In this document: piece after piece, positions 3,133-27,751 of the stretch
Numbering within the stretch: the stretch's first letter is position 1
Layout of the letters: each line of letters starts with the position of its first letter
Virus record (IMG/VR): IMGVR_UViG_3300025909_000005
From: a virus
Lineage: Duplodnaviria > Caudoviricetes
Strand: one strand, 5' to 3'
Length of the DNA: 64,000 nt
Position numbers and translations under genes: made by a program
Notes under the pieces: generated by a model
Database searches by the model: none
What the model was told of the DNA's origin: nothing
The model's input: the letters and a program-made list of their open reading frames with translations, nothing else

Positions 3133-5072
3133 TGGCTGATCCAAATAAGTCACTGTACGAACCAACGGAACATCGAACCACTCTCGATGAGTGCGCAGAT
3201 GCGGCCGGCTCGTTCAACAACCCGAACACACCAAACTCGGGCCTGCCACCGATTCCAGCTGGCACTATTCCAAGCCCAGGTGGTGGTGTTGTCACGCCTC
3301 CAAACGTCTACGTTCCACCTGACATCTGCATTGGTGACTTCACCATCTCGCAGAACGAGTGTGCGATCAACGATAGCAACTACCAGCAGTCACTCGCTGC
3401 TCAGCAGTTGGCCATCTCTGGTGCACCGCTGAACGTTTTCAAGCTGCTCGGCAATCATGAACAGGGAAAGCTGATTGACCTCGTTGGTCACGGCCACGCA
3501 ATTGGCTCTGACGATACCTCAATGGCCTTCGACGAGCTTGCTGGTGAGTGGACCTCCTCAGTCACCGGCCTCGCTGTCACGCAGACGCCTGCCTATGTTG
3601 GCTACGATTTCGGCTACCGCCTCACGTCTTACGGCCAGCTTGAGAACGCCAAGGGACAGCCGGCAGACCAGCACATCACCTCGATCCGAATCACACAGGG
3701 TCCAGACGCCAACACCCGCGCCCTTCAAGTTCGTGTCGATCGCTCTGACGGTGACTTCATCATGGGCACGCCGATCTACACCGCGACTGGTAACGGCACG
3801 GTCACTCGCTTCAGCCAAGGCATTGACACCAAGCCAGGCGCGTTCATGCTCTTCGCGACGTCGCCTACCAAGTTCAGCGTCATGTGGACCGGAAATGGCA
3901 CCTACATTCTAGGTGACGCCACAGTCGGTCAGATGTTTGACTCCAAGCACGGCTCGTTCGTCATCGCTCCTGGCACCATTCCATTTGCTGCAGGCGACGC
4001 CATCTCGGTGCCCATCCAGCTCGAGTGGAAGCGCGTTGACGTAGTGAACCTTCCGAACGTTGCAACTCCTGCCCTGATTCGTATCAAGCAGTCGGCACCA
4101 TCTCGCTTCTGGCGCATCGTCCCGACCTCATTTGCTGGTGTAACCACGAACTCTCCTTGGGTCGTTGAGAAGCTCGAGCTCTTTGACTACCAAGCCACGA
4201 TGCTCACGGACATCCAGGACCCGCTGTTCATGGAGAACCGAGACCGCGACTACGCGAAGACCTCCATCCAGCTGAAGGTTGCCTACACTCCATTTGACGC
4301 GGTCTCTGACCTCACGAAGTTCGGCTTCCAGGTCGCAGACATCTACAGCTTCACGACGACCTTCGCCACCATGGTTGAAGCTCTAGGCCGCCCAATTGTT
4401 GTTGGTGACGTGCTTGAGCTTCCATCCGAGATGCAGTGGGACCAGAACATGCGTCCCGTTCGCAAGTTCCTCGAGGTCACTGACGGTGGCTGGGCAGCGG
4501 ACGGCTACACCACAGGCTGGCAGCCAATCATCTACCGCTTCCAGGCGCAGCAGCTCATCCCAGGTCAGGAGCACCGTGACCTGCTTGGCACCCTTGACAC
4601 GCAGAAGTACGTCGTCGATGACGGCCGCTTCTTTGATGGCATCGAACAGATCTCCACTGGCTACCTCACGGCCATGGAGAACAACGAAGCTGAAGCTCGC
4701 AAGGCAGTTCCAGAAACGGGCACGAACGTTCGTGAAGCCGCCTCTGGTACGAATCGCTTTAACCAGCCCGGCTCCTACGACGGCGTTGGCGTCTACGTCG
4801 AGGACGGTCTGCCACCAGATGGCCATGAATACAAGACAGGCTTCGACAAGCTGCCGGATGTCGCTGAGGCCAACGACGGCGACTACTTCCGCCTGGAGTA
4901 CTCACCTGAGCGCAACCTTCCAGCTCGCCTCTACAAGTTCAGTGGAGTCAAGAACCGCTGGATCTTTGTTGAGACTGACCGTCGCAACCAGCGTTCGTCG
5001 CACACCCCATCACAGCGCGAAATCTTTGCTCTTGACAAGCAGTTCTCGCCAACAGCCAAGAAGATCTCATGA
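3132..5072 (+). CDS. gp14: Neck/head-closure protein (T4 gp14-like) with inserted beta-sandwich domains
   Basis: ISGAPLNVFKLLG and QDPLFMENRDRDY...LTKFGFQ motifs; lies directly after gp13. Confidence 0.7.
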   Translation: MADPNKSLYEPTEHRTTLDECADAAGSFNNPNTPNSGLPPIPAGTIPSPGGGVVTPPNVYVPPDICIGDFTISQNECAINDSNYQQSLAAQQLAISGAPLNVFKLLGNHEQGKLIDLVGHGHAIGSDDTSMAFDELAGEWTSSVTGLAVTQTPAYVGYDFGYRLTSYGQLENAKGQPADQHITSIRITQGPDANTRALQVRVDRSDGDFIMGTPIYTATGNGTVTRFSQGIDTKPGAFMLFATSPTKFSVMWTGNGTYILGDATVGQMFDSKHGSFVIAPGTIPFAAGDAISVPIQLEWKRVDVVNLPNVATPALIRIKQSAPSRFWRIVPTSFAGVTTNSPWVVEKLELFDYQATMLTDIQDPLFMENRDRDYAKTSIQLKVAYTPFDAVSDLTKFGFQVADIYSFTTTFATMVEALGRPIVVGDVLELPSEMQWDQNMRPVRKFLEVTDGGWAADGYTTGWQPIIYRFQAQQLIPGQEHRDLLGTLDTQKYVVDDGRFFDGIEQISTGYLTAMENNEAEARKAVPETGTNVREAASGTNRFNQPGSYDGVGVYVEDGLPPDGHEYKTGFDKLPDVAEANDGDYFRLEYSPERNLPARLYKFSGVKNRWIFVETDRRNQRSSHTPSQREIFALDKQFSPTAKKIS

Positions 5073-5740
5073 TCACCTTCAAGCAATTTCTACTTGAGCA
5101 GGACGACCCTGATCTCTTCCAAGTCCTTGAGCGCGATTGCGCTGACTTCCTGCATCAGTCGCAGCGGGTAGGACTGATCTATCGTGGCATTCAAGAGACG
5201 TCTCTTGCCAACCACCATGACTACGCTATCCACGATGCTGGGCACCATGGCCCCATTGAGATGTGGGAAAAGCTCGTCAAGGGTCAGGGTGGTCGATCAA
5301 GTCGCCGGCCTCGTGATTCAAGCTCGTCACAGCACGATGCAGCTGATGCTTGGTTCGAACAGAAGTTTGGTGTCTACGCCCGCTCAAAGTCACTGTTCGC
5401 TAGTGGAAACAAGCACGCCCTCTCTGACTACGGTGACACCTACATCGTGTTGCCAAAGGGCCACATGAACGTCATCTGGTCCCCGAAGGTTGATGACATG
5501 TACGGCCACTTTGAGACTGGAGAATGGGGCAAGATTCGTCAGGGACTCCGGATGGGTTCCGTTTCTGAAGAGGAATTTTGGCACCAAATTGGCATGGACC
5601 TCGACGATCAGGACTACCGTGAAGGTGACCTTCCAGCAGGTATCAAGTCAGGCAACGAGCTCATGATTCAGTGCAACTCGTACTACATCATTCCAGTCGC
5701 TGATGAAGCAGCGATAAAGCGCGGGCTCAAGATCGAATGA
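5069..5740 (+). CDS. Tagged putative internal head protein, family A (ART-like)
   Basis: N-terminus MITFKQFLLE; conserved IYRG, RRPRD, RSKSLF, YGDTYIVLP and GNELMI. Confidence 0.6.
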   Translation: MITFKQFLLEQDDPDLFQVLERDCADFLHQSQRVGLIYRGIQETSLANHHDYAIHDAGHHGPIEMWEKLVKGQGGRSSRRPRDSSSSQHDAADAWFEQKFGVYARSKSLFASGNKHALSDYGDTYIVLPKGHMNVIWSPKVDDMYGHFETGEWGKIRQGLRMGSVSEEEFWHQIGMDLDDQDYREGDLPAGIKSGNELMIQCNSYYIIPVADEAAIKRGLKIE

Positions 5741-6366
5741 AGACGTTCAAGCAGTTCATTTCTGAGGCGCAGTTCGATGACATCGATGCGGCCGTAGATG
5801 AGATCCTCCACCACTGTGGACCATTTCTTCATGAGTCTCGTCGCAAGGGTTTCCTGCAGCGTGGCATGCAGGGACTTGACCTTACGCCGTGGGATGACAA
5901 GTCGGTCCCATACGTTATCAAGAAGGTGAACAAAGAACGCGTACCACGTCGAGGTGCCGGCCTGAACGCCATCGAGCACAAGGTCGTTGACGACTTCCTC
6001 CACGACAAGCTCGGCATTCGTGGTCGTTCTCAGGCGATGTTCTGCATTGGCCAGTCTGAGAAGGGAACGCAGAAGGCCAGCCAGTTTGGTACGCCGTACA
6101 TCGTCTTCCCGATCGGTGACTTCAAGTACGTGTGGTCGCCTGAGGTCTTTGACATCTTTGGCCAGCTTCACTACAAGAGTGAGGACCCTGAAGAGCAGAA
6201 GAAAGAGATTGAGACCTGGCTGGAGGGCAAGAAGTACCGCACGACGGGCCTTGATCAGGCGGTGAAGTCTGCGAATGAGATCATGATCGACTGCGAGACG
6301 TACTACGTCTTCAGTAAATACATGTGGGCCCACAAATTCCGAACAAAACTAGGCATCGGCCTCTGA
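5737..6366 (+). CDS. Tagged putative internal head protein, family A (ART-like)
   Basis: N-terminus MKTFKQFISE; LQRG, RVPR, RSQAMF, FGTPYIVFPIG and ANEIMI. Confidence 0.6.
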   Translation: MKTFKQFISEAQFDDIDAAVDEILHHCGPFLHESRRKGFLQRGMQGLDLTPWDDKSVPYVIKKVNKERVPRRGAGLNAIEHKVVDDFLHDKLGIRGRSQAMFCIGQSEKGTQKASQFGTPYIVFPIGDFKYVWSPEVFDIFGQLHYKSEDPEEQKKEIETWLEGKKYRTTGLDQAVKSANEIMIDCETYYVFSKYMWAHKFRTKLGIGL

Positions 6367-15245: not shown

Positions 15246-15598
15246 AAATCAATGAATTGATTGAGGGACTTGCCAAGCTGCAATCCTCCTACCGAGAACT
15301 GTTCAAATTCAGCCCAGATATGTCCGATGAAAAGATTGCAGACCACCTTGATCGTGTGGGCCATCAATTTGATTTGAAGGTGTATCCGATTGAGACTTGG
15401 CGTAGCACATATGTAGCTGATGAACTTACCATTGGTGCAGCTTCTTCAGACATCGAATCAGCTGAATTCAAGAAAAAGCTGACGGACTTCGTTCGCGACG
15501 CCAATGAGGGCGCCAAGCTTTCTAAGGCAGGATTTAGTTTGCATGTAAGCGGCGTACATGCTTGGCGCCAGGCCACTGTCACAATTGAGAGGTCATGA
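15242..15598 (+). CDS. Hypothetical protein with type-2 tag (MKINELIE)
   Basis: GTGA overlap with the gp4 stop. Confidence 0.6.
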   Translation: MKINELIEGLAKLQSSYRELFKFSPDMSDEKIADHLDRVGHQFDLKVYPIETWRSTYVADELTIGAASSDIESAEFKKKLTDFVRDANEGAKLSKAGFSLHVSGVHAWRQATVTIERS

Positions 15599-16086
15599 TG
15601 AACCCAAAGCCAAAGTCAGACAACCCGATGCTCAGCAACGACAAGAAGCTGACGAACCCTCTGGACGAGCTCTTCAACACAGCCCAGTCTGAGGAGGTCG
15701 TTGAGTACGAACAGGTCACTGAAGGTGAGCTCGCCGAGATGGCAGAGCCAGAGAAGCCAACGAAGGACGAGGAAGACGTTGAGATCGATGCCAAGATCGA
15801 CACTGTCTACACCGCGGCCATCGATGCCTTCAACCAGCAGACGGCCTACACCGAGATCATCGAGCCTCGCTACGCAGCTCGCAATGCTGAAGTCGCCGCA
15901 AACTACCTGAACATCGCCCTCAACGCCGCCGCCACCCGTGCCCGCGTCAAGGGAGACCGTGCTCGCACGGCGAACTTCGTACCATACGCCAACGGCGGTC
16001 GAAACACCAACAACGTCGTCGTTGCCTCTCGTGAAGAAATCATGAAGATGATCAGCGTGGATGCGGACGTGAAAGAGATCAAGTGA
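15595..16086 (+). CDS. Possible terminase small subunit (gp16-like)
   Basis: Acidic N-terminus, helical core and C-terminal TNNVVVASREEIMK resembling the gp16 C-terminus; near the terminase. Confidence 0.45.
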   Translation: MMNPKPKSDNPMLSNDKKLTNPLDELFNTAQSEEVVEYEQVTEGELAEMAEPEKPTKDEEDVEIDAKIDTVYTAAIDAFNQQTAYTEIIEPRYAARNAEVAANYLNIALNAAATRARVKGDRARTANFVPYANGGRNTNNVVVASREEIMKMISVDADVKEIK

Positions 16087-19942: not shown

Positions 19943-20197
19943 ATGATGGGTATTCTGAAGAAAGTGTTGATTGCCGGTGCAGGTGCAGCGGCATCCTATT
20001 ACGCAACCAAGTGGGTCGCGCAGCTGCTTGAAGAGAAGCCGCTCGACCAACGCCTGGCCGACCTGCAAAAGATGGCGGAGGTCTACACGACCGCTGCCAA
20101 GGACGCAGGTACTGATGCAGTTGAAAAGACGATGGGCAAGAAGGACGAGCTTATCGAGGGTCTGCAAAAGTACCTGGACAGTCTGAAGAGCCAGTGA
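19943..20197 (+). CDS. Small protein with N-terminal hydrophobic helix
   Basis: KKVLIAGAGAAASYY followed by a coiled-coil; GAAAGGA SD. Confidence 0.6.
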   Translation: MMGILKKVLIAGAGAAASYYATKWVAQLLEEKPLDQRLADLQKMAEVYTTAAKDAGTDAVEKTMGKKDELIEGLQKYLDSLKSQ

Positions 20198-20313
20198 TGC
20201 TCCGCACGATCGGCAAGGTAATCGCCGGTGTGGCTGCTACGGCAGCTACGACCTACCTGGGGAAGCGCTTTCTCCAGTGGGCCGGCGTCATCAAGAAACC
20301 TCCGCAAAAGTGA
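20197..20313 (+). CDS. 38-aa peptide MLRTIGKVIAGVAATAATTYLGKRFLQWAGVIKKPPQK (absent from ORF track)
   Basis: TGATG overlap upstream and GTGA overlap downstream; resembles the N-terminus of 19943..20197. Confidence 0.6.
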   Translation: MLRTIGKVIAGVAATAATTYLGKRFLQWAGVIKKPPQK

Positions 20314-20990
20314 TCACCTTCAAGCAGTTCCTGAACGAAACGACGGTCGAAAAGTACTCCACGGATCTAGAAGAAATTGTGGACCTCATTCAGCAGGACT
20401 GCCAGCCATTCCTGCGCGAGGCCGGCGACTACGCGCTCTTCCGCGGGTTCAGGGGCCGACGAGGCTTGACTGATGATCACGGCCACCACATTGGGCCCAT
20501 CTACTGGCTCAAGGCAACTCCACGCACTGACCGTCGGCCACTTGACTCGTATAAGCTGGCTCATGACCTCATGGACGACTGGTTCGAGAAGAACTACGGT
20601 GTGCGCGCTCGGTCTGAGGGCGTCTTTTGCGCTCCTCGTCAGGCTCAGGCTGCTTCGTATGGGCGCGCCTTCTACGTCTTTCCAATTGGCAACTTCAAGG
20701 TTCTCTGGGCCAGCCACGATGTGGCTGGAACGAGCGGCGTCAAGGACACTGCAAGCCTCTCAGATTCCATCTACAGGTTTGCTGAGACCGTGGAGCCGGA
20801 CAAGCAGGCCGACGTTGCTGACCGCGTCATGACGAACCACAATCACTGGCATGAAGGCAACGTGAAGAAGGCAGTCCAGTCTGATGCCGAGATCACGCTC
20901 ATCTGCGACAAGTACTACGCCGTGGCCTGTGGGCCAAATGTACACTACACTGACCTCATTTCTGGAAAACAGTTGCCCCGTGAAGAGTAA
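20310..20990 (+). CDS. Tagged putative internal head protein, family A (ART-like)
   Basis: MITFKQFLNE (GTG); LFRG, RRPLD, RSEGVF, YGRAFYVFPIG and DAEITL. Confidence 0.6.
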   Translation: MITFKQFLNETTVEKYSTDLEEIVDLIQQDCQPFLREAGDYALFRGFRGRRGLTDDHGHHIGPIYWLKATPRTDRRPLDSYKLAHDLMDDWFEKNYGVRARSEGVFCAPRQAQAASYGRAFYVFPIGNFKVLWASHDVAGTSGVKDTASLSDSIYRFAETVEPDKQADVADRVMTNHNHWHEGNVKKAVQSDAEITLICDKYYAVACGPNVHYTDLISGKQLPREE

Positions 20991-21014
20991 ATAAGAGATC
21001 TACCGGATCTCTTC

Positions 21015-21599
21015 ATGACGCACATCGCCTACATTCACGGACTGAATTCTAGTCACACGTCGTTCAAGTACATTCATGAGATGCTACCTGAACACAAGGC
21101 CACGTTCCTTGACTACGAGAGTCACCAGGACCTCGGCACCTCGATCGCGCAGGTGCTTCGGAAGTTCCCTAAGAGTGAGCCTGTTGTCATCGTCGGTCAC
21201 TCCCTAGGTGGCGTCATCGGCACGCTAATCGCGGCTGAGTACCCTGACCGCGTCCTCAAGCTCGTCACGATGTCCTCGCCCTTCAGTGGTTCCCGCGCGG
21301 CTTCAACCCTTCGCTGGATCCCTGGCTCCCTGAAGATCCTGAACGACATCACGCCAGCCTCCTCATACATCAAGAAGGTGAAGTCGCTGAAGTTGGACGT
21401 TCCAACTATCTCGATCATCTCCACGGGCGGTCACCTGCCTACATCACCAGAGCCAAATGACAGCGTCGTCTCACTGTCCTCTCAGCGCGCCTTGAAGTTC
21501 GGAAAGAAGATCGAGGTCAACGTATCCCACTTTGAAGTCCTCATGCATGACAAGACCGTCAAGACGATCAAGGACTTCGTCTTCGGAGACACCGAATGA
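21015..21599 (+). CDS. Alpha/beta hydrolase (esterase/lipase-like)
   Basis: YIHGLNSS, VGHSLGG nucleophile elbow, NDSVV (Asp) and SHFEVL (His). TAAATA at 20988-20993. Confidence 0.85.
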   Translation: MTHIAYIHGLNSSHTSFKYIHEMLPEHKATFLDYESHQDLGTSIAQVLRKFPKSEPVVIVGHSLGGVIGTLIAAEYPDRVLKLVTMSSPFSGSRAASTLRWIPGSLKILNDITPASSYIKKVKSLKLDVPTISIISTGGHLPTSPEPNDSVVSLSSQRALKFGKKIEVNVSHFEVLMHDKTVKTIKDFVFGDTE

Positions 21600-22396
21600 A
21601 GATCCACTCAAAGCGCCACCGCGACGCTCACGCAATCCATCCGTACACGTCTCACCAGGTTCAAATGATGATGGACCCCGTGAAGTTCATCAACGCGTAC
21701 ATGCACACTCCCTACGCCATCGGTGGCACAAAGCAGATCAGGCTCCATCCCTTCCAGGAGGACTTCATCAACTGCATCAAGCAGAACAAAAACGTCATCG
21801 CTGTCATGCCACGTCAGTCAGGCCAGACGATGACTGCTTTGGCCTTCTGCCTCTGGGAAAGCATGTTTGTTGTTGGCGCTGACGACACCATGATCCTTAC
21901 AACGGATCAAATGAACGTGCAACCGCTCGCAGACATCCTGAAGACGATGCTCAACTCTGTTCCAGCGTTCATGCGACCATCTGTTCTACAGCAGAATCGA
22001 ACAGCTATCTCGTTCGCGAAGGGTTCGCGCATTGAAGTTGCTCACATCAACCCATCTACTGTCTGTGGCCGATCACCAACTAGAGTTCACCTCGACTCGT
22101 TTGCAGCCGCGTCTGACCAGCGACAGAAGGACGCGTGGTACACCCTCATCGGTACTCTCGTCACGTCCAACAACATCTCCATGACCGGTACTCCTCGCGG
22201 TACCACTTCAACGTTTGCCCACATCTGGCGCGAGGCCAACCTCCAGATTGCCAATGGCAAGACGTTTAACGACTTCACGCCGTTCTTCAAGAACGTGCAT
22301 GACATGACTCACTTGGACCCACTCTGGCTCCAGTCAACTCGCAAGGCGATTGGCGAGTCAGCGTGGAAGTCAGAATTTGAGTGCCAGTTCCTATGA
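21596..22396 (+). CDS. Degenerate terminase large-subunit ATPase-domain paralogue
   Basis: Collinear with the N-terminal half of 22393..23937, but Walker A is PRQSGQT and Walker B is HLDSF; no nuclease domain. Confidence 0.7.
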   Translation: MKIHSKRHRDAHAIHPYTSHQVQMMMDPVKFINAYMHTPYAIGGTKQIRLHPFQEDFINCIKQNKNVIAVMPRQSGQTMTALAFCLWESMFVVGADDTMILTTDQMNVQPLADILKTMLNSVPAFMRPSVLQQNRTAISFAKGSRIEVAHINPSTVCGRSPTRVHLDSFAAASDQRQKDAWYTLIGTLVTSNNISMTGTPRGTTSTFAHIWREANLQIANGKTFNDFTPFFKNVHDMTHLDPLWLQSTRKAIGESAWKSEFECQFL

Positions 22397-23937
22397 AGAA
22401 TCCCCAGCTAAAGCGCGCCTACTCCACAGACGAGTATACCCCTCAAATGATTGGTGAGCTTGCCAAGTGCAAGAAGGATCCCGTCTACTTCATCCGTACC
22501 TACGTGAAGGTCCAACACCCGGTCCGTGGTACGGTTCCGTTTGACCTGTACGAGTACCAAGAGCGGTTCATCCGTCACATGCAGGACAACCGCTTCACGA
22601 TCACGCTTCAGCCACGCCAGTGCGGCAAGACCCTGACGGTGGCCATGTTCCTGTTGTGGTACGCGATGTTCAATGAAGACGCGCTGCTCCTGATCGCCTC
22701 GAAGAACCAGGGCCACGCCCTTGAGATCGCCGCGCGCGTTCGCTTCGCCTACGAGGAACTTCCAAACTGGATCAAGTGCGGTCTCAAGTACTACAACCGC
22801 CACAACATCGAGTTCGACAACGGTTCGCGCATCATCTCGGAAGCCACGACCGAAAAGACAGGTCGTGGTCTCGCTATCACGAAGATCTACCTCGACGAGT
22901 TGGCCTTCATTAACCCACGCATCCAACAGGAGCTGTGGAAGTCTCTGACCCCTACCCTTTCGACTGGTGGTTCGGCTATCATCTCGTCGACGCCAAACGG
23001 TGACACCGAGCTCTTCGCCAGCCTGTGGCGCGAGGCCAACACCGAGGGAGATGGCAAGCCAGGCCGTAACGGCTACGCACCTTTCCAGGTTGACTGGCGC
23101 GAACACCCTGAACGCAGCGACGACTACTGGGACACGATGGTTTCTCAGCTTGGTCTTCTTGCCTGCCGTCAGGAAGTTGGCTGCGAGTTCCTCTCGTCTG
23201 ACGCCCTGCTCATCAACTCCCTTCGCCTGCATGAGCTTCACGAATCCATGGTCCACCACACGGACATGGGCTTCAAGTTCTGGAAGGCGGACGAGGACAT
23301 TGGTGGAAGTGGCAAGACCTACCTCGTCGGTGTCGACCCTGCAACCGGTGGCGGTAACGACTACTCGGTCATCGAGGTGTTTGAGTTCCCGAGCCTGGAG
23401 CAGGTTGCTGAGTGGCGATCCAACGAGATCAAGATCCCGATGCTGTACGCCAAGCTCAAGTGGATCTTGAACAAGCTCTCTGCTCCGATCAACCGTGGAC
23501 GTGCTGAGGTGCTATGGACCTTCGAACGGAACGGCATCGGTGAAGCTGTCTCGACGCTCTACTACAACGACGAACGACAGCCAGAAGCTGAACTCTTCAA
23601 TGACAACCCTGCCAAGCTGGGCGTCTTTACCTCGGGCAAGACGAAGGTCCTGACCTGTCTGCAGCTCAAGGCGGCAGTCGAGCGCGTCAAGGGCGGCCTG
23701 AAGATCAACTCAGCCCAGCTCCTGAACGAGCTCAAGAACTTCGTGGCCAAGGGTGGATCGTACGAGGCCAAGTCTGGTGCCACAGACGACTGTGTCATGG
23801 CGCTGGTGCTCGTCATGCGACTGCTCAAGCGTATCGGCGACTACGACGACCGGGCCTTCAGAATGGTGAACGAATACGTAGAACCTGACGTGGATGATCA
23901 GTGGGGAGATGAGCCAGTCCCGTTCTCGATCTCTTAA
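22393..23937 (+). CDS. gp17: Terminase large subunit
   Basis: PRQCGKT Walker A, IYLDELAF Walker B, SSTPNG coupling motif, GVDPATG..NDYS and DDCVMAL nuclease motifs. Confidence 0.95.
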   Translation: MKNPQLKRAYSTDEYTPQMIGELAKCKKDPVYFIRTYVKVQHPVRGTVPFDLYEYQERFIRHMQDNRFTITLQPRQCGKTLTVAMFLLWYAMFNEDALLLIASKNQGHALEIAARVRFAYEELPNWIKCGLKYYNRHNIEFDNGSRIISEATTEKTGRGLAITKIYLDELAFINPRIQQELWKSLTPTLSTGGSAIISSTPNGDTELFASLWREANTEGDGKPGRNGYAPFQVDWREHPERSDDYWDTMVSQLGLLACRQEVGCEFLSSDALLINSLRLHELHESMVHHTDMGFKFWKADEDIGGSGKTYLVGVDPATGGGNDYSVIEVFEFPSLEQVAEWRSNEIKIPMLYAKLKWILNKLSAPINRGRAEVLWTFERNGIGEAVSTLYYNDERQPEAELFNDNPAKLGVFTSGKTKVLTCLQLKAAVERVKGGLKINSAQLLNELKNFVAKGGSYEAKSGATDDCVMALVLVMRLLKRIGDYDDRAFRMVNEYVEPDVDDQWGDEPVPFSIS

Positions 23938-23946
23938 GGTCTGCCC

Positions 23947-23953
23947 ATAAATA
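23947..23953 (+). promoter_or_regulatory. Late promoter ATAAATA
   Basis: Upstream of the fibre cluster. Confidence 0.65.
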
Positions 23954-23983
23954 GCCCTGTAATTTCTAACACAGGGCTACACC

Positions 23984-26900
23984 ATGCTTACAGACGGTAT
24001 TCAGCTGCTCGGCTCTTCAACTGCGACGAACCTGTCGATCACGAGCGGCACCACCCTTCCTTCTACCGGCCTGAACGTCGGTGAACTCTTCTACCAGATT
24101 GGAACTGGTCTGTATGTCTCGGATGGCTCCGCGTGGAACCAAGTCGGTTCAGCATACGTCCTGACCGCTGCCAAGATCACGACCGCGCTTGGCGCAACTC
24201 CTGCAACTCTCGACGGCACCGGCAAGCTGAGCACCTCCCAGCTGCCAGCGATCGCCATCACTGACACCTTCCCTGTCGCATCTCAAGCTGAGATGCTGGC
24301 GCTCACCGCTCAGACAGGCGACGTTGCAGTTCGCAGCGACTCGAACACCTCCTGGATTCTGAAGGGAACCGATCCTTCTCAGCTCTCCAACTGGACGCAG
24401 CTGCTCACACCAACTTCGGCAGTCACCTCAGTCAACACTCAGACCGGTGCAGTCACGCTCACCACCACGAACATCTCGGAAGGTACGAACAAGTACTACA
24501 CAGACGCCCGTGCTCGTGCAGCAATCTCGGCAACTGGCTCTGGCGGCTCGTATGACTCCTCGACTGGTGTCATCACGTTCTCCTCCGGAACGGCAGGCAC
24601 GCTCTCGGCAGCCACCACGATTGGTGACGGCACAGGCGCTTCTTCGATCACCTCGACAGGTGGTACGAACGCCAACCTCACGATTGCAGCGGGTCAAGGC
24701 GGTGCGAACTCCTCGCTGTACCTCCAGGCTGGTCCATCTGGTTCCGGTTCCCAGACTGGCGGCTCGGTCTACATCTCTCCAGGTGCCAATGGTGCAACCT
24801 CTGGTTCCGGCATCGGCAACGTCGTTATTCAAGGCAACCCAGCTTCTGCCTACGTTGGCGCGACGGGTGGCAACAGCAACGGCGCAATCGTCTTCCAGAC
24901 GGGTGCAGCGCAGTCCACAAACAACACAGTCAACACACTCGTCAACCGCCTCGTCATCCAGGCAGGCGGTGCATGGATCGTCAGCGGCTCAGCAGGCTCA
25001 AGCGGCCAGGTTCTGACGTCTGCTGGTGCCGGTGCGACACCGACCTGGACAACCATTGCGACAACTTCGCTGTCGGCAACTGGCGGTACTCCACGCTCAA
25101 GCACGACAGGTGTCTACGCCGGTCTCGATGCGACGAACCAGCCGGTCATCACGCTGAACAACGCCGGTCTGACCACTGGCAACCGTGCCTCTGACATCTA
25201 CATTGCTTCCGACGGCATCCTGCGTTGGGACTTTGCGAACGACTCGTACACGGTCGGTACAGCGTGGCTGCAGGTTGCACGTTCTAGCAACACCGCAACC
25301 AACATCACGCTCACAGGCACGGCAATCACGCTTACGGGCGCCGTATCTGGCACGTCCTTCAGCGGTGATGGTTCTGCTCTTACGGCCCTCAATGCATCGA
25401 ACCTTTCTACCGGCACGGTTGGTACGGCCCGTCTTGGTTCAGGTACGGCTTCCTCTACGACCTTCCTTCGTGGTGACGGCACCTGGGCAACCCCATCGGG
25501 TGGCAGCGGCACAGTCACTTCTGTTGCAGTTTCGGGTGGTACAACGGGTCTTACGACTTCCGGCGGTCCGATCACTGGCTCTGGAACGATCACGCTTGCC
25601 GGTACTCTCGCGCTGGCAAACGGCGGTACAGGTGCAACTACCCAGGCTGGCGCTGCGAATGCAGTTCTTCCAACGCAGACAAGCAACTCTGGCAAGTTCC
25701 TCACAACTGACGGCTCGAATGTTTCTTGGGCTACGGTCTCTGGTGGCACTGGTTCTCCAGGTGGCTCTGACACGCAAGTTCAGTACAACGCGTCTGGCGC
25801 CTTTGCAGGCAGCTCGACCTTCACGTTCAACTCTGGCACCGGCACCGTCACTGCAACGACCTTCTCTGGTGCCCACACGGGTAACGGTTCGGGTCTGACG
25901 AGCCTGACACCAACGAACATCACTGCAACTGGAACACCATCTTCCACGACGTACCTGCGCGGTGACGGCACTTGGTCAACCCCTTCTTCCTCAGCCACCT
26001 CAGCTCTGACAAGCGGCTTCGTTGCCTACGGTATCTCTGGTACGATGAGCGGCTCTACCGCGCTCACCTTCTCGGGCTCTCCAACAAACGGCTCTGGAGC
26101 TCCAACACTCGTCATCGGCGCCTCGACAAACACACAGGCCGCCACCCTCCAACAGAACGACAACCCAGGCTCAACCTTCACGGTTCGCGCTGGTGATTCT
26201 AGCGGCGGTGGTTCCGGTGGTACCCTCGTTGTTCGAGCTGGTCACGGCACGACCAACACTGGCGGTCAAAACGGCGGTAACGTCACGATCATCGCTGGTT
26301 CGTCGGTCGCTGGTTCTAAGGGTTACGTCAGCGTTACAACTGGTGGTACGACAGTCGGTGGTGGCGGTGGTACTGAACGCCTGCGCATCGACCAAAACGG
26401 TACATGGACGCTTAATGGTGCGGCAGGTACCACTGGTCAGGTTCTGACTAGCCAAGGTTCCTCTGCTGCACCAATCTGGGCGGCTGTCAGCCTCACCTCG
26501 CTGCAGGCCACGGCTAGCGCCTCAGTCAACACCTCCACGACTGGATCGTATGTGGGTCTTGACGGTAACACTCAGCCAATCTTGGCGATGGTGAACACCG
26601 CCGCCGGCACGAATAACAAGTACAGCGAATGGGCCGTGACCTCGGCCGGCAGCACTGTTCTGTCGCTCGTGAATGACGCCAACACCGGGAGCTCAAATGT
26701 CATCACTGTTGCGCGCTCAGGAAACACCGCGACGCTGATCACGCTGGCATCGACAGCGGTGAATCTCTCTGGCCTCACGTCTGGTCTTCAGCTGAATGCA
26801 AGCGCGGGCACGACTGGTCAGGTTCTCACGAGCCAAGGTGCTTCATCTGCACCAACATGGACGACACTGGCAGCCCCGACAACCCTCAGCGCAACTGGCA

Positions 26901-27751
26901 CCCAGCCAATCGCGAACTCCGGTGGTACTCAGCCAGGCTCAGCATCAACTGGTGTCTTCATTGGTAAGGACAGCTCAAGCCGTCCGAACTTGACGTTCGT
27001 CAACAGCAGCGGCGGTACCGACTCGAAGGCAACCTACCTGATCAGCACAGGCACTACCTTCGAAGGTCGATTCGCCAATGACATTGACGCTGCCGACGCA
27101 GCATGGATGGCAGTCACGCGCTCTGGCACAACGGCAACTGCGATCTCGTTCACGACGACCGCGATGTCGACCAACACGTCGTTCTCGTCTCCGCTGCTCA
27201 CGTCTGCAAGCACGCTGACGATTACGGCCGGTGCGAACATGGTCATTCAGACGACAGGCGCGAACGGCATCGCCATGAAGACGCCGAACGGCTCGACTGT
27301 CGGCTCAATTGCAATCACGGCTGGTACCGCATCTGCCGGTGCCGGTGGTCCTGTCTCACTGACAGCCGGCAACGGCTCCACCACCGGCGGCAACGCCACG
27401 CTCCAGGCCGGTAACGGCGCTGCAGGTGTTGGTGGTTCTGTCACCATTGCTGGTGGCTCTGGTGGTAACGCAATCGGCGGTGACATCACGATCACTCCAG
27501 GCGCGGGCTCCGGTGGTTCACAGGCAGGTGCTCTCACCCTCGGTGTTGGCTCTCCAGCAACGGCAGCCTTCGGTGGTTTCCCTTACATGCCTGCCATGGC
27601 AGGCGCTCCTTCTGGCGCGCCGACAGCAAAGTCTGGCTTTGTTCCATTCGTGTACGACACGACGAACAACAAGCTTTGGATCTACACAGGCTCCGCCTGG
27701 AAGTGCGTTCCTCTCGGCACAGCTGGTGCTGCGATGGCAACCACGTACTAA
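23984..27751 (+). CDS. Long tail-fibre-like protein (S/T/G/A-rich, internal repeats)
   Basis: Fibre motifs VTSVNTQTGAVTL, GQVLTS.G..PTW x3 and FLRGDGTW x2. Confidence 0.7.
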   Translation: MLTDGIQLLGSSTATNLSITSGTTLPSTGLNVGELFYQIGTGLYVSDGSAWNQVGSAYVLTAAKITTALGATPATLDGTGKLSTSQLPAIAITDTFPVASQAEMLALTAQTGDVAVRSDSNTSWILKGTDPSQLSNWTQLLTPTSAVTSVNTQTGAVTLTTTNISEGTNKYYTDARARAAISATGSGGSYDSSTGVITFSSGTAGTLSAATTIGDGTGASSITSTGGTNANLTIAAGQGGANSSLYLQAGPSGSGSQTGGSVYISPGANGATSGSGIGNVVIQGNPASAYVGATGGNSNGAIVFQTGAAQSTNNTVNTLVNRLVIQAGGAWIVSGSAGSSGQVLTSAGAGATPTWTTIATTSLSATGGTPRSSTTGVYAGLDATNQPVITLNNAGLTTGNRASDIYIASDGILRWDFANDSYTVGTAWLQVARSSNTATNITLTGTAITLTGAVSGTSFSGDGSALTALNASNLSTGTVGTARLGSGTASSTTFLRGDGTWATPSGGSGTVTSVAVSGGTTGLTTSGGPITGSGTITLAGTLALANGGTGATTQAGAANAVLPTQTSNSGKFLTTDGSNVSWATVSGGTGSPGGSDTQVQYNASGAFAGSSTFTFNSGTGTVTATTFSGAHTGNGSGLTSLTPTNITATGTPSSTTYLRGDGTWSTPSSSATSALTSGFVAYGISGTMSGSTALTFSGSPTNGSGAPTLVIGASTNTQAATLQQNDNPGSTFTVRAGDSSGGGSGGTLVVRAGHGTTNTGGQNGGNVTIIAGSSVAGSKGYVSVTTGGTTVGGGGGTERLRIDQNGTWTLNGAAGTTGQVLTSQGSSAAPIWAAVSLTSLQATASASVNTSTTGSYVGLDGNTQPILAMVNTAAGTNNKYSEWAVTSAGSTVLSLVNDANTGSSNVITVARSGNTATLITLASTAVNLSGLTSGLQLNASAGTTGQVLTSQGASSAPTWTTLAAPTTLSATGTQPIANSGGTQPGSASTGVFIGKDSSSRPNLTFVNSSGGTDSKATYLISTGTTFEGRFANDIDAADAAWMAVTRSGTTATAISFTTTAMSTNTSFSSPLLTSASTLTITAGANMVIQTTGANGIAMKTPNGSTVGSIAITAGTASAGAGGPVSLTAGNGSTTGGNATLQAGNGAAGVGGSVTIAGGSGGNAIGGDITITPGAGSGGSQAGALTLGVGSPATAAFGGFPYMPAMAGAPSGAPTAKSGFVPFVYDTTNNKLWIYTGSAWKCVPLGTAGAAMATTY

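What the first reader, a model, noticed from the sequence alone, without database searches (positions are those of the whole stretch)
21596..23937. Catalytically degenerate terminase-ATPase paralogue coupled to the real large terminase
Seen: 21596..22396 is collinear with the ATPase half of gp17 (DPVKFINAYM vs DPVYFIRTYV; L.PFQEDFI vs LYEYQERFI) and ends at the ATPase/nuclease boundary (EFECQFL vs EVGCEFL). Its Walker A Lys is Gln (PRQSGQT vs PRQCGKT) and its Walker B Glu is Ser (HLDSF vs YLDEL). The ORF is intact and overlaps the gp17 start (ATGA). Established: these residues are needed for ATP hydrolysis, and terminase ATPase domains are the trigger for several Avs defence systems. Inference: a retained pseudo-ATPase that regulates the packaging motor or acts as a decoy against terminase-sensing immunity.
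Basis: partly seen in the sequence, partly recalled or inferred. Interest (0 to 1): 0.72.

Follow-up and report, generated by a model that had tools for sequence, protein, structure and literature searches.

The report
Dead terminase-ATPase copy beside terminase
The gene just upstream of this giant soil phage's DNA-packaging motor gene is a well-preserved but enzymatically disabled copy of the motor's ATPase domain. Such 'truncated terminase' genes were already noted in other jumbo phages, and nobody knows yet what they do.

Summary
Window 21596-22396 encodes a 266-aa, ATPase-domain-only paralogue of the adjacent large terminase TerL (28% identity, E 3e-35). The model fits T4 gp17 ATPase at TM 0.82. 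Walker A Lys is Gln and Walker B Glu is Ser. ATGA overlaps join it to both neighbours.

It is not decaying. Five natural variants keep the frame, with 17 synonymous against 2 non-synonymous changes (dN/dS 0.03).

It belongs to a large family. About 33 of the 150 best cluster representatives in an exhaustive search are short copies lacking the Lys and usually the Glu, while keeping the rest of the nucleotide pocket.

The arrangement is already published without a function: the 'truncated large terminase' of Rak2-like phages and gp17.2 of phiM12. This scan has also met it on other DNA.

It is not a small-terminase substitute. A gp16-like gene lies at 15595-16086, and phiM12 has gp16, gp17.2 and gp17 in a row.

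It is dispensable. Three close relatives lack it, one with a deletion scar.

It diverges far faster than TerL and sits in a recently exchanged block.

My best reading (0.42) is a non-catalytic, binding-only accessory partner of the terminase. A decoy against terminase-sensing immunity stays open (about 0.2).

The parts
21596..22396 (+). Gene for the 266-aa ATPase-domain-only, catalytically disabled TerL paralogue (P0001)
   Evidence: 28% identity, E 3e-35 to TerL. (PHROG TerL families). (pLDDT 93; TM 0.82 to T4 gp17 ATPase). (dN/dS 0.03).
21596..21622 (+). Codons for the basic N-terminal peptide MKIHSKRHR. The clade motif is MKIISKRGR, the most conserved stretch of the protein.
   Evidence: 75% mean pairwise identity over residues 1-9 against 35% overall, in 10 cluster representatives. 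It has low pLDDT and is probably a disordered tail. The same peptide is left fused in frame to TerL in L007.
21809..21829 (+). Walker A remnant PRQSGQT (Lys replaced by Gln; P-loop Arg, Gln, Gly and Thr kept)
22088..22102 (+). Walker B remnant HLDSF (Asp kept, catalytic Glu replaced by Ser). The position of the trans Arg finger 10 residues upstream is Cys.
22393..22396 (+). ATGA overlap: stop of the paralogue inside the start of TerL
   Evidence: Equivalent ATGA or TAATG junctions occur in L002, L006, L009, L025, L028 and L031.
22393..23937 (+). Functional-looking large terminase TerL (514 aa) with intact Walker A GKT, Arg finger, Walker B DE and nuclease domain
21015..21599 (+). Alpha/beta-hydrolase (esterase/lipase-like) gene. 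It overlaps the paralogue's start and lies in the same conserved block.
19950..22400 (+). Block that is 97-99% identical to variant contigs whose flanks, including TerL, are only 73-91% identical. This points to recent recombinational exchange of the module that ends with the paralogue.
15595..16086 (+). gp16-type small-terminase candidate (P0191), separated from the paralogue by about 5.5 kb of cargo genes
   Evidence: phrog_445 'terminase small subunit', E 0.0015, nearly full length. Its homologue directly upstream of the L009 paralogue (E 2e-13) matches the same PHROG at 6e-10. There is no Pfam hit, so this is a candidate only.

Best explanation
The gene encodes a folded but non-hydrolysing copy of the TerL ATPase domain. 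It is the type annotated as 'truncated large terminase', 'terminase-like protein' or gp17.2. It is an optional third gene of the terminase operon, lying downstream of a gp16-like small terminase and overlapping the start of terL, so it is made together with TerL. It has lost exactly the two catalytic residues (Walker A Lys, Walker B Glu) and the whole nuclease domain. It keeps the RecA-like core, most of the nucleotide pocket and a conserved basic N-terminal peptide. I infer that it works by binding rather than by catalysis, as an accessory, non-catalytic partner of the packaging enzyme. It would dock on TerL, or on TerS or DNA through its N-terminal tail, and tune assembly, initiation or premature activity of the motor. 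In a sister clade a ribbon-helix-helix DNA-binding domain takes the place of the tail. Shown here: homology, fold, loss of catalytic residues, gene overlap, purifying selection, family-wide pattern, dispensability. Inferred: binding to TerL, TerS or DNA, and any effect on packaging.
For: Homology and fold. Specific loss of catalytic residues with the pocket kept, counted in 37 paralogues chosen for lacking the Lys and/or Glu: Q-motif Gln 33/37, P-loop Arg 37/37, Gly 36/37, Thr/Ser 35/37, Walker B Asp 30/37, Arg finger 24/37, but Lys 2/37 and Glu 3/37. All 35 TerL sequences keep every one of these. Purifying selection on this very gene: 17 synonymous against 2 non-synonymous differences, dN/dS 0.03, and 20 against 5 in L047; P about 7e-10 under neutrality. 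Conserved overlap with terL in lineages whose TerL is only 31-82% identical, in Erwinia phage pEa_SNUABM_50 and in phiM12. The nearest relative, P0056, has the same esterase-paralogue-TerL order. No plus-strand terminator-like site lies between the gp16-like gene and terL. The N-terminal nonapeptide is 75% identical against 35% overall. In L007, which deleted the gene, that peptide remains fused in frame to TerL. RHH_1 domains above Pfam's cut-off are fused to the dead ATPase in a sister clade. One relative, P0041, is a tandem fusion of two dead domains, which would fit action as an oligomer.
Against: No direct evidence of binding to TerL, TerS, portal or DNA exists. The gene is dispensable: L001, L003 and L007 (TerL 80% identical) have no copy anywhere on contigs of 251, 113 and 35 kb. 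The cultured relatives RsoM2USA, XacN1 and PA5oct lack one beside terL. It diverges about 20 times faster than the TerL ATPase domain between the same pairs of phages (path 2.5 against 0.13). It also lies in a recently exchanged block at the edge of a cargo island. That behaviour is typical of accessory or arms-race genes rather than motor subunits. In this copy the trans Arg finger position is Cys. Not every family member lies next to terL: L004 has a homing endonuclease gene in between, and the gene downstream of P0114 does not look like TerL.
Confidence: 0.42

Rival explanations
1. Counter-defence or stealth protein. A TerL look-alike made together with TerL soaks up or blocks host sensors that recognise the terminase ATPase domain (Avs1-3, Upx). 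The loss of the ATP-binding Lys and Mg-binding Glu would keep the copy itself from triggering those sensors.
For: The behaviour is that of an accessory gene. Presence among close relatives is patchy. Long-range divergence is very fast while short-range purifying selection is strong. The gene sits at the edge of a cargo island in a recently exchanged block. Literature (PMC13601566): the isolated TerL ATPase domain is sufficient to activate EcAvs2 and Upx. EcAvs2 contacts the terminase-bound ATP and active site. The T4 stand-alone ATPase-like protein vs.8, with intact Walker motifs, is toxic with EcAvs2. A Walker-dead copy could therefore plausibly escape such sensing.
Against: No decoy of this kind is described; the word 'decoy' does not occur in that paper. 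A copy that cannot hold ATP would lack the very features Avs2 and Avs3 read, so it may simply not bind them. All Rak2-like phages are reported to keep the gene, which is unusually stable for an anti-defence gene. RHH fusions are not explained. Nothing here tests binding to any sensor.
Confidence: 0.2
2. Dominant-negative weapon. The dead ATPase domain poisons the packaging motors of co-infecting related phages by entering their TerL rings, while the phage's own TerL is resistant.
For: The fold is preserved and the catalytic residues are removed, the classic make-up of a dominant-negative subunit. The gene diverges fast and is exchanged as a cassette.
Against: This is purely inferential. Tight co-translation with the phage's own TerL would expose its own motor first. 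No exclusion phenotype is known for any member.
Confidence: 0.07
3. Replacement of the small terminase. The paralogue sits in the gp16 position and does the DNA-recognition job of TerS.
For: It lies immediately upstream of terL with overlapping codons. RHH DNA-binding domains are fused to it in a sister clade. Like TerS proteins, it evolves fast.
Against: A gp16-type candidate lies at 15595-16086. In L009 the order is gp16-like, paralogue, TerL. In phiM12 it is gp16, gp17.2, gp17. Close relatives do without the paralogue.
Confidence: 0.05
4. Decaying partial duplicate of terL with no function.
For: Catalytic residues are lost, the nuclease half is absent, and some relatives lack the gene.
Against: dN/dS is 0.03-0.07, with the frame intact in five variants. 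The model is confident (pLDDT 93). Motif retention is selective across the family. An AU test does not reject one old origin for the 33 paralogues (p 0.65).
Confidence: 0.02

Closest known systems
'Truncated large terminase' / 'terminase-like protein' of Rak2-like jumbo phages (CBB_274 in vB_PcaM_CBB, Buttimer et al. 2017, PMC5259590; pEa_SNUABM_50 QOI72292.1)
   Same: A TerL ATPase-domain-only gene immediately upstream of terL and overlapping it. The pEa_SNUABM_50 protein matches my paralogue profile at E 4e-18 and also lacks the Walker A Lys (GCGIT) and Walker B Glu (FFDDV). No function is known.
   Different: It is very divergent (a long branch) and lacks the MKIISKRGR N-terminal peptide. 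The paper calls it truncated but does not discuss catalytic residues, selection or distribution beyond Rak2-like phages and phiM12/phiN3. Orthology with the window's gene is unresolved.
gp17.2 of Sinorhizobium phage phiM12 (YP_009143010.1)
   Same: A TerL-N paralogue between gp16 and gp17 with 4-nt overlaps. It matches the profile at E 2e-44.
   Different: It keeps Walker A GKT and Walker B DE. It is shorter (196 aa) and lacks the C-terminal third of the domain. It is therefore truncated but not obviously dead.
T4 gp17 ATPase domain (PDB 2O0H/2O0J; Pfam Terminase_6N PF03237)
   Same: Same fold (TM 0.82) and the same order of motifs: DPxYF, Q motif, P-loop, NGS, Walker B, STP.
   Different: It has no Walker A Lys, no catalytic Glu and no nuclease domain, and in this copy no trans Arg finger. 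Pfam's model does not reach P0001 itself.
T4 vs.8, a stand-alone terminase-ATPase-like protein (Evans et al. 2026, PMC13601566)
   Same: A separate phage protein homologous to the TerL ATPase domain. It is relevant to terminase-sensing immunity because it is toxic with EcAvs2.
   Different: It keeps its Walker motifs, is not encoded next to gene 17, and is too distant for my paralogue profile to detect in the T4 genome.

Membership tests
T4-type large terminase (TerL, gp17) | Homology to the TerL ATPase domain (sequence and fold) | tested here: met
   BLASTP E 3e-35 to the adjacent TerL. PHROG TerL families at 3e-19. Foldseek hit to 2O0H at TM 0.82. Pfam PF03237 itself gives no hit for P0001.
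T4-type large terminase (TerL, gp17) | Walker A GK[ST] and Walker B D-E catalytic pair | tested here: not met
   The motifs read PRQSGQT and HLDSF. All 35 aligned TerL sequences have K and E.
T4-type large terminase (TerL, gp17) | C-terminal RNase H-like nuclease domain | tested here: not met
   The protein ends at the domain boundary and has no Terminase_6C match.
'Truncated terminase-like' / gp17.2 genes of jumbo and T4-related phages | ATPase-domain-only TerL homologue encoded directly upstream of terL on the same strand | tested here: met
   The same layout occurs in pEa_SNUABM_50, phiM12, L002, L006, L009, L025, L028 and L031, and the P0056 contig.
'Truncated terminase-like' / gp17.2 genes of jumbo and T4-related phages | Common descent with the published members | tested here: inconclusive
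   The free tree splits the paralogues into several groups; starred branches force at least 2-3. The AU test does not reject a single clade (p 0.65). Long branches limit both results.
Small terminase (T4 gp16 type) | Similarity to TerS families; sole candidate for DNA recognition in the operon | tested here: not met
   P0001 matches only TerL families. A separate gp16-like gene exists at 15595-16086.
Anti-defence decoy of terminase sensors | Binds or blocks Avs1-3 or Upx without activating them | not testable with these tools
   No known family exists to compare with. This needs co-expression assays.

The most novel reading that the evidence does not exclude
Walker-dead TerL ATPase-domain copies, made together with TerL in many jumbo phages, are a widespread phage counter-measure against immune sensors that recognise the terminase ATPase domain (Avs1-3, Upx). 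They would act as non-activating decoys or sponges, which would explain their patchy presence, fast divergence, cassette-like exchange and the selective loss of the ATP/Mg-binding residues.
Probability: 0.17. Interest if true: 0.85.

Novelty: new member of a known kind. Interest (0 to 1): 0.45.

Why it matters
TerL is the most conserved phage protein, the engine of genome packaging and a main target of bacterial pattern-recognition immunity. A selectively maintained, catalytically silenced copy of its ATPase domain recurs in the terminase operons of many jumbo phages. It is either an unrecognised accessory component of the packaging machine or an immune-evasion device. Either answer would add a new player to a very well-studied system. 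The family is broad, and it has cultivable carriers (Rak2-like phages CBB and pEa_SNUABM_50; phiM12), so the question is directly testable. The existence of such genes is already in the literature and in earlier notes of this scan. The window therefore adds a new, well-documented member and some new facts: selection, dispensability, the N-terminal motif and a separate TerS candidate. It does not add a new kind of element.

Tried and rejected
- **Complex prediction:** Complex prediction of TerL (A4) with the paralogue (A3) gave no verdict (score 0.02 against a mark of 0.32). Three earlier attempts did not reach the machine. This is not evidence either way.
- **Expression:** no RNA holder was listed for the gene or the region. 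This is no evidence on expression.
- **Close relatives:** megablast of 21000-24000 against cultured phages found no match. The search for related loci with P0001 alone in IMG/VR found nothing. The word-based protein search found only a 99% copy.
- **Missing DNA:** DNA of the P0003 and P0056 contigs could not be fetched. The TerL partner of the nearest relative could therefore not be compared.
- **XacN1 ORF256:** this gene upstream of terL is not a paralogue.
- **Pfam PF11053 (T4 gp16):** it found nothing convincing in the relatives' contigs. P0191 has no Pfam or PDB sequence hit and no BLASTP similarity to phiM12 gp16. Its TerS assignment rests on phrog_445 and its L009 homologue only.
- **T4 vs.8:** my profile does not detect it in T4.
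- **Literature:** searches for 'pseudo-ATPase' with terminase, and for a second TerL copy lacking the nuclease, gave nothing. The two jumbo-phage transposon papers concern chimallin phages and say nothing on this gene.
- **TerS replacement:** this was my working idea until. I dropped it.
- **Many independent duplications:** the first tree suggested this. I withdrew it as a claim after the AU test.
Full report
**1. The observation**

The ORF at 21596..22396 (+) is open and encodes 266 residues, P0001. The next gene, 22393..23937, is a complete T4-type large terminase, P0002, with Pfam Terminase_6N and Terminase_6C.

BLASTP aligns P0001 residues 9-266 with TerL residues 7-267 at 28% identity, E 3e-35. 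The copy therefore covers the ATPase half and stops at the domain boundary.

The stop of P0001 lies inside the TerL start (ATGA). The start of P0001 lies on the stop of the upstream esterase gene in the same way, with a GGAGA 7 nt upstream.

An AlphaFold2 model built on 37 relatives is confident (pLDDT 93.2). Its best structural matches are the T4 gp17 ATPase domain (2O0H/2O0J, TM 0.82, E 3e-18), followed by other TerL ATPase domains.

**2. Where it sits**

The window is part of a T4-related jumbo phage from rhizosphere metagenomes:
- The exact protein occurs on a 376,619-bp contig.
- The DNA occurs in rhizosphere runs of about 20 studies.
- The closest cultured TerL sequences belong to Ralstonia RsoM2USA (46%), Xanthomonas XacN1 (42%), PA5oct (39%) and the Rak2-like/Eneladusvirus group (36%).

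The neighbourhood reads as follows:
- neck/adaptor, gp15-like, sheath, tube and head-closure genes;
- a 163-aa gene at 15595-16086;
- about 5.5 kb of cargo genes (AAA_33 kinase-like, DUF5856, small proteins, a phrog_11975 member, an esterase);
- the paralogue and TerL;
- a 1255-aa repetitive fibre-like protein.

No plus-strand terminator-like site lies between 15000 and 24500.

**3. A separate small terminase**

An earlier first-stage note on this genome called the 15595-16086 gene gp16-like, and I tested that.
- The gene has no Pfam or PDB sequence match.
- It matches phrog_445 'terminase small subunit' almost end to end at E 0.0015.
- It is homologous (E 2e-13) to the gene directly upstream of the paralogue in locus L009. 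That gene hits the same PHROG at 6e-10, and phiM12 gp16 hits it at 4e-36.

In L009 the order is gp16-like, paralogue, TerL. In phiM12 it is gp16, gp17.2, gp17, with 4-nt overlaps. The paralogue is therefore a third gene of the terminase operon, not a stand-in for TerS. I gave up that idea, which had been my working reading.

**4. It is under selection**

Five metagenomic variants of this very gene (L043-L047) keep the 266-codon frame.
- Four of them differ by 17 synonymous and 2 non-synonymous changes (dS 0.10, dN/dS 0.03).
- L047 differs by 20 and 5 (dN/dS 0.066).
- With 176 synonymous and 622 non-synonymous sites, so few replacements have P about 7e-10 under neutrality.

The 'decaying duplicate' reading is refuted.

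**5. It belongs to a large family**

TerL relatives in IMG/VR (33 loci) show upstream TerL-N paralogues in L002, L004, L006, L009/L010, L025-27, L028 and L031. Their cognate TerL proteins are 31-82% identical to the window's.

A profile of seven paralogues was scored against 1.84 billion cluster representatives and gave 19,245 hits, mostly TerL. Among the best 150:
- about 33 are short (227-335 aa) and lack the Walker A Lys, with T, M, S, I, L, V, N or Q in its place, and usually the Walker B Glu, with N, D, S, C, G or Q in its place;
- every protein of about 500 aa or more in which the motif is aligned keeps GK[ST] and DE.

I aligned 37 paralogues. I chose them for being short and lacking the Lys and/or Glu, so the Lys and Glu counts themselves are partly by construction. 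The rest of the pocket is nevertheless kept:
- Q-motif Gln 33/37;
- P-loop Arg 37/37;
- P-loop Gly 36/37;
- P-loop Thr/Ser 35/37;
- Walker B Asp 30/37;
- Arg finger 24/37.

The window's copy has Cys at the Arg-finger position. About nine short hits keep both catalytic residues. Some of these may be fragments of TerL, and some may be intact-Walker paralogues like phiM12 gp17.2.

**6. It is already known as a gene arrangement**

Notes from this scan pointed to Buttimer et al. 2017, which I read (PMC5259590). [quoted passage not shown] No function is given.

I checked two of these.
- pEa_SNUABM_50 'terminase like protein' overlaps terL, matches my profile at E 4e-18, and reads GCGIT and FFDDV at the two motifs, so it is dead too.
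- phiM12 gp17.2 matches at 2e-44 but keeps GKT and DE and is cut short at 196 aa.

A 2026 paper describes T4 vs.8, a stand-alone terminase-ATPase-like protein with intact Walker motifs that is toxic with EcAvs2 (PMC13601566). My profile does not detect vs.8 in T4.

I found no paper on the catalytic state, selection or function of these copies. The window therefore holds a new member of a known but unexplained kind.

**7. Dispensable, fast and mobile**

Three close relatives (L001, L003, L007; TerL 80% identical) go straight from esterase to TerL. They have no second match anywhere on contigs of 251, 113 and 35 kb.

L007 carries a deletion scar. The first ten codons of a paralogue (MKIISKRGRE) and its last codon are joined in frame to the TerL reading frame, whose start is GTG there. 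The gene was present in that lineage and was lost.

RsoM2USA, XacN1 and PA5oct have no copy beside terL.

Between the window and L006 the TerL ATPase domains are 90% identical (tree path 0.13), but the paralogues are 33% identical (path 2.5), about 20-fold more distant.

At short range the segment 19950-22400 is 97-99% identical to L043/L044. This segment holds two small genes, a phrog_11975 gene, the esterase and the paralogue. The flanks drop to 73-91%, and that includes TerL, which is normally the most conserved gene. dS jumps from 0.10 in the paralogue to 0.23-0.55 in TerL right at the junction. This looks like recent recombinational exchange of the module. Together with strong short-term constraint, it suggests that part of the long-range 'divergence' is allele or cassette replacement rather than steady fast evolution. 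I could not separate the two.

**8. One origin or many**

A first tree split the paralogues into several groups among the TerL clades. After I removed the longest branches, starred branches still forced two groups. However, an AU test did not reject a single paralogue clade, and the constrained tree was even slightly better (p 0.65). Long-branch attraction could favour that tree, so the number of duplications is open.

The window's gene lies in a well-supported clade made only of paralogues (10-11 rows, SH-aLRT 96). Its nearest member is P0056 (34%), whose contig has the same esterase-paralogue-TerL order.

**9. Clues to mechanism**

Within that clade the N-terminal nonapeptide MKIISKRGR is 75% identical on average, against 35% for the whole protein. 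It is MKIHSKRHR in the window. It lies in the only low-confidence, probably disordered part of the model. It is also the part that L007 kept fused to TerL. That is the signature of a short binding motif.

A sister clade (L025, L031, P0048, P0181) instead carries an N-terminal ribbon-helix-helix domain above Pfam's threshold, that is, a DNA-binding dimerisation module. Another clade has a helical extension of about 110 aa. One relative is a tandem of two dead domains.

Taken together, these features point to a protein that acts by binding, with a variable N-terminal adaptor: a preserved fold, selectively removed catalytic residues, co-translation with TerL and these appendages. I therefore favour a non-catalytic accessory partner of the terminase that tunes assembly, initiation or premature activity (0.42).

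Dispensability, patchiness, fast turnover and the cargo-island location fit an arms-race gene equally well. The isolated ATPase domain is what EcAvs2 and Upx sense. The decoy or stealth reading therefore stays alive (about 0.2), although a copy that cannot hold ATP would lack the features Avs2 and Avs3 read. A dominant-negative role against competing phages is possible but unsupported (0.07).

**10. Verdict**

The element is real, selected and part of a broad family, but the arrangement is already in the literature and in earlier notes of this scan.

- direct evidence of purifying selection;
- the family-wide pattern of selective catalytic loss;
- proof of dispensability with a deletion scar;
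- the conserved N-terminal motif and alternative N-terminal domains;
- the co-existence of a gp16-like TerS candidate;
- the mosaic boundary at the paralogue/TerL junction.

The function remains to be tested at the bench.

Noticed in passing
window 15595-16086 (+): A 163-aa gp16-type small-terminase candidate (phrog_445, E 0.0015). It is homologous to the gene directly upstream of the paralogue in L009. Here about 5.5 kb of cargo genes separate it from the paralogue and terL.
   Followed up: partly
window 19950-22400 against L043/L044: A sharp mosaic boundary. This block is 97-99% identical to variant contigs, while both flanks are 73-91% identical, including terL from about 22400 on. dS jumps from 0.10 to 0.23-0.55 at the paralogue/TerL junction.
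   Followed up: partly
L007 5968-6003: Deletion scar of the paralogue. Its first ten codons (MKIISKRGRE) and last codon are joined in frame to the TerL frame, which has GTG at its usual start. TerL there may carry the paralogue's N-terminal peptide.
   Followed up: partly
L004 3968-4636; also L020/L021, L028, L029/L030, L031, L033: Selfish elements crowd this locus. L004 has an HNH/NUMOD3 homing-endonuclease gene between the paralogue and terL. Several other loci have terL interrupted by 1-2 kb inserts that look like inteins or endonuclease genes.
   Followed up: no
L025 5797-6792, L031 5803-6768; proteins P0048, P0181: A clade of dead TerL-N paralogues carries an N-terminal ribbon-helix-helix (CopG-type) domain above Pfam's cut-off.
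   Followed up: partly
protein P0041 (612 aa, metagenomic): A tandem fusion of two Walker-dead TerL ATPase domains in one polypeptide. Walker A reads SRQTGIS and SRETGLT; the Walker B region reads IIEDFA and IIKDFA.
   Followed up: no
window 5069-5740, 5737-6366 and 20277-20990 (+): Three paralogous genes of PHROG 11975 (unknown function), two of them in tandem among tail genes and one in the cargo island upstream of the esterase.
   Followed up: no
window 23984-27751 (+): A 1255-aa Gly/Ser/Thr/Ala-rich repetitive protein directly downstream of terL with no PHROG match. Relatives (L002, L005, L007) have similar fibre-like proteins in the same place.
   Followed up: no
L053 2934-4565 (phiM12 gp17): The bona fide TerL of phiM12 reads SRQSAKTT at Walker A (Ala in place of the usual Gly), while its truncated neighbour gp17.2 has the canonical GKT.
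   Followed up: no
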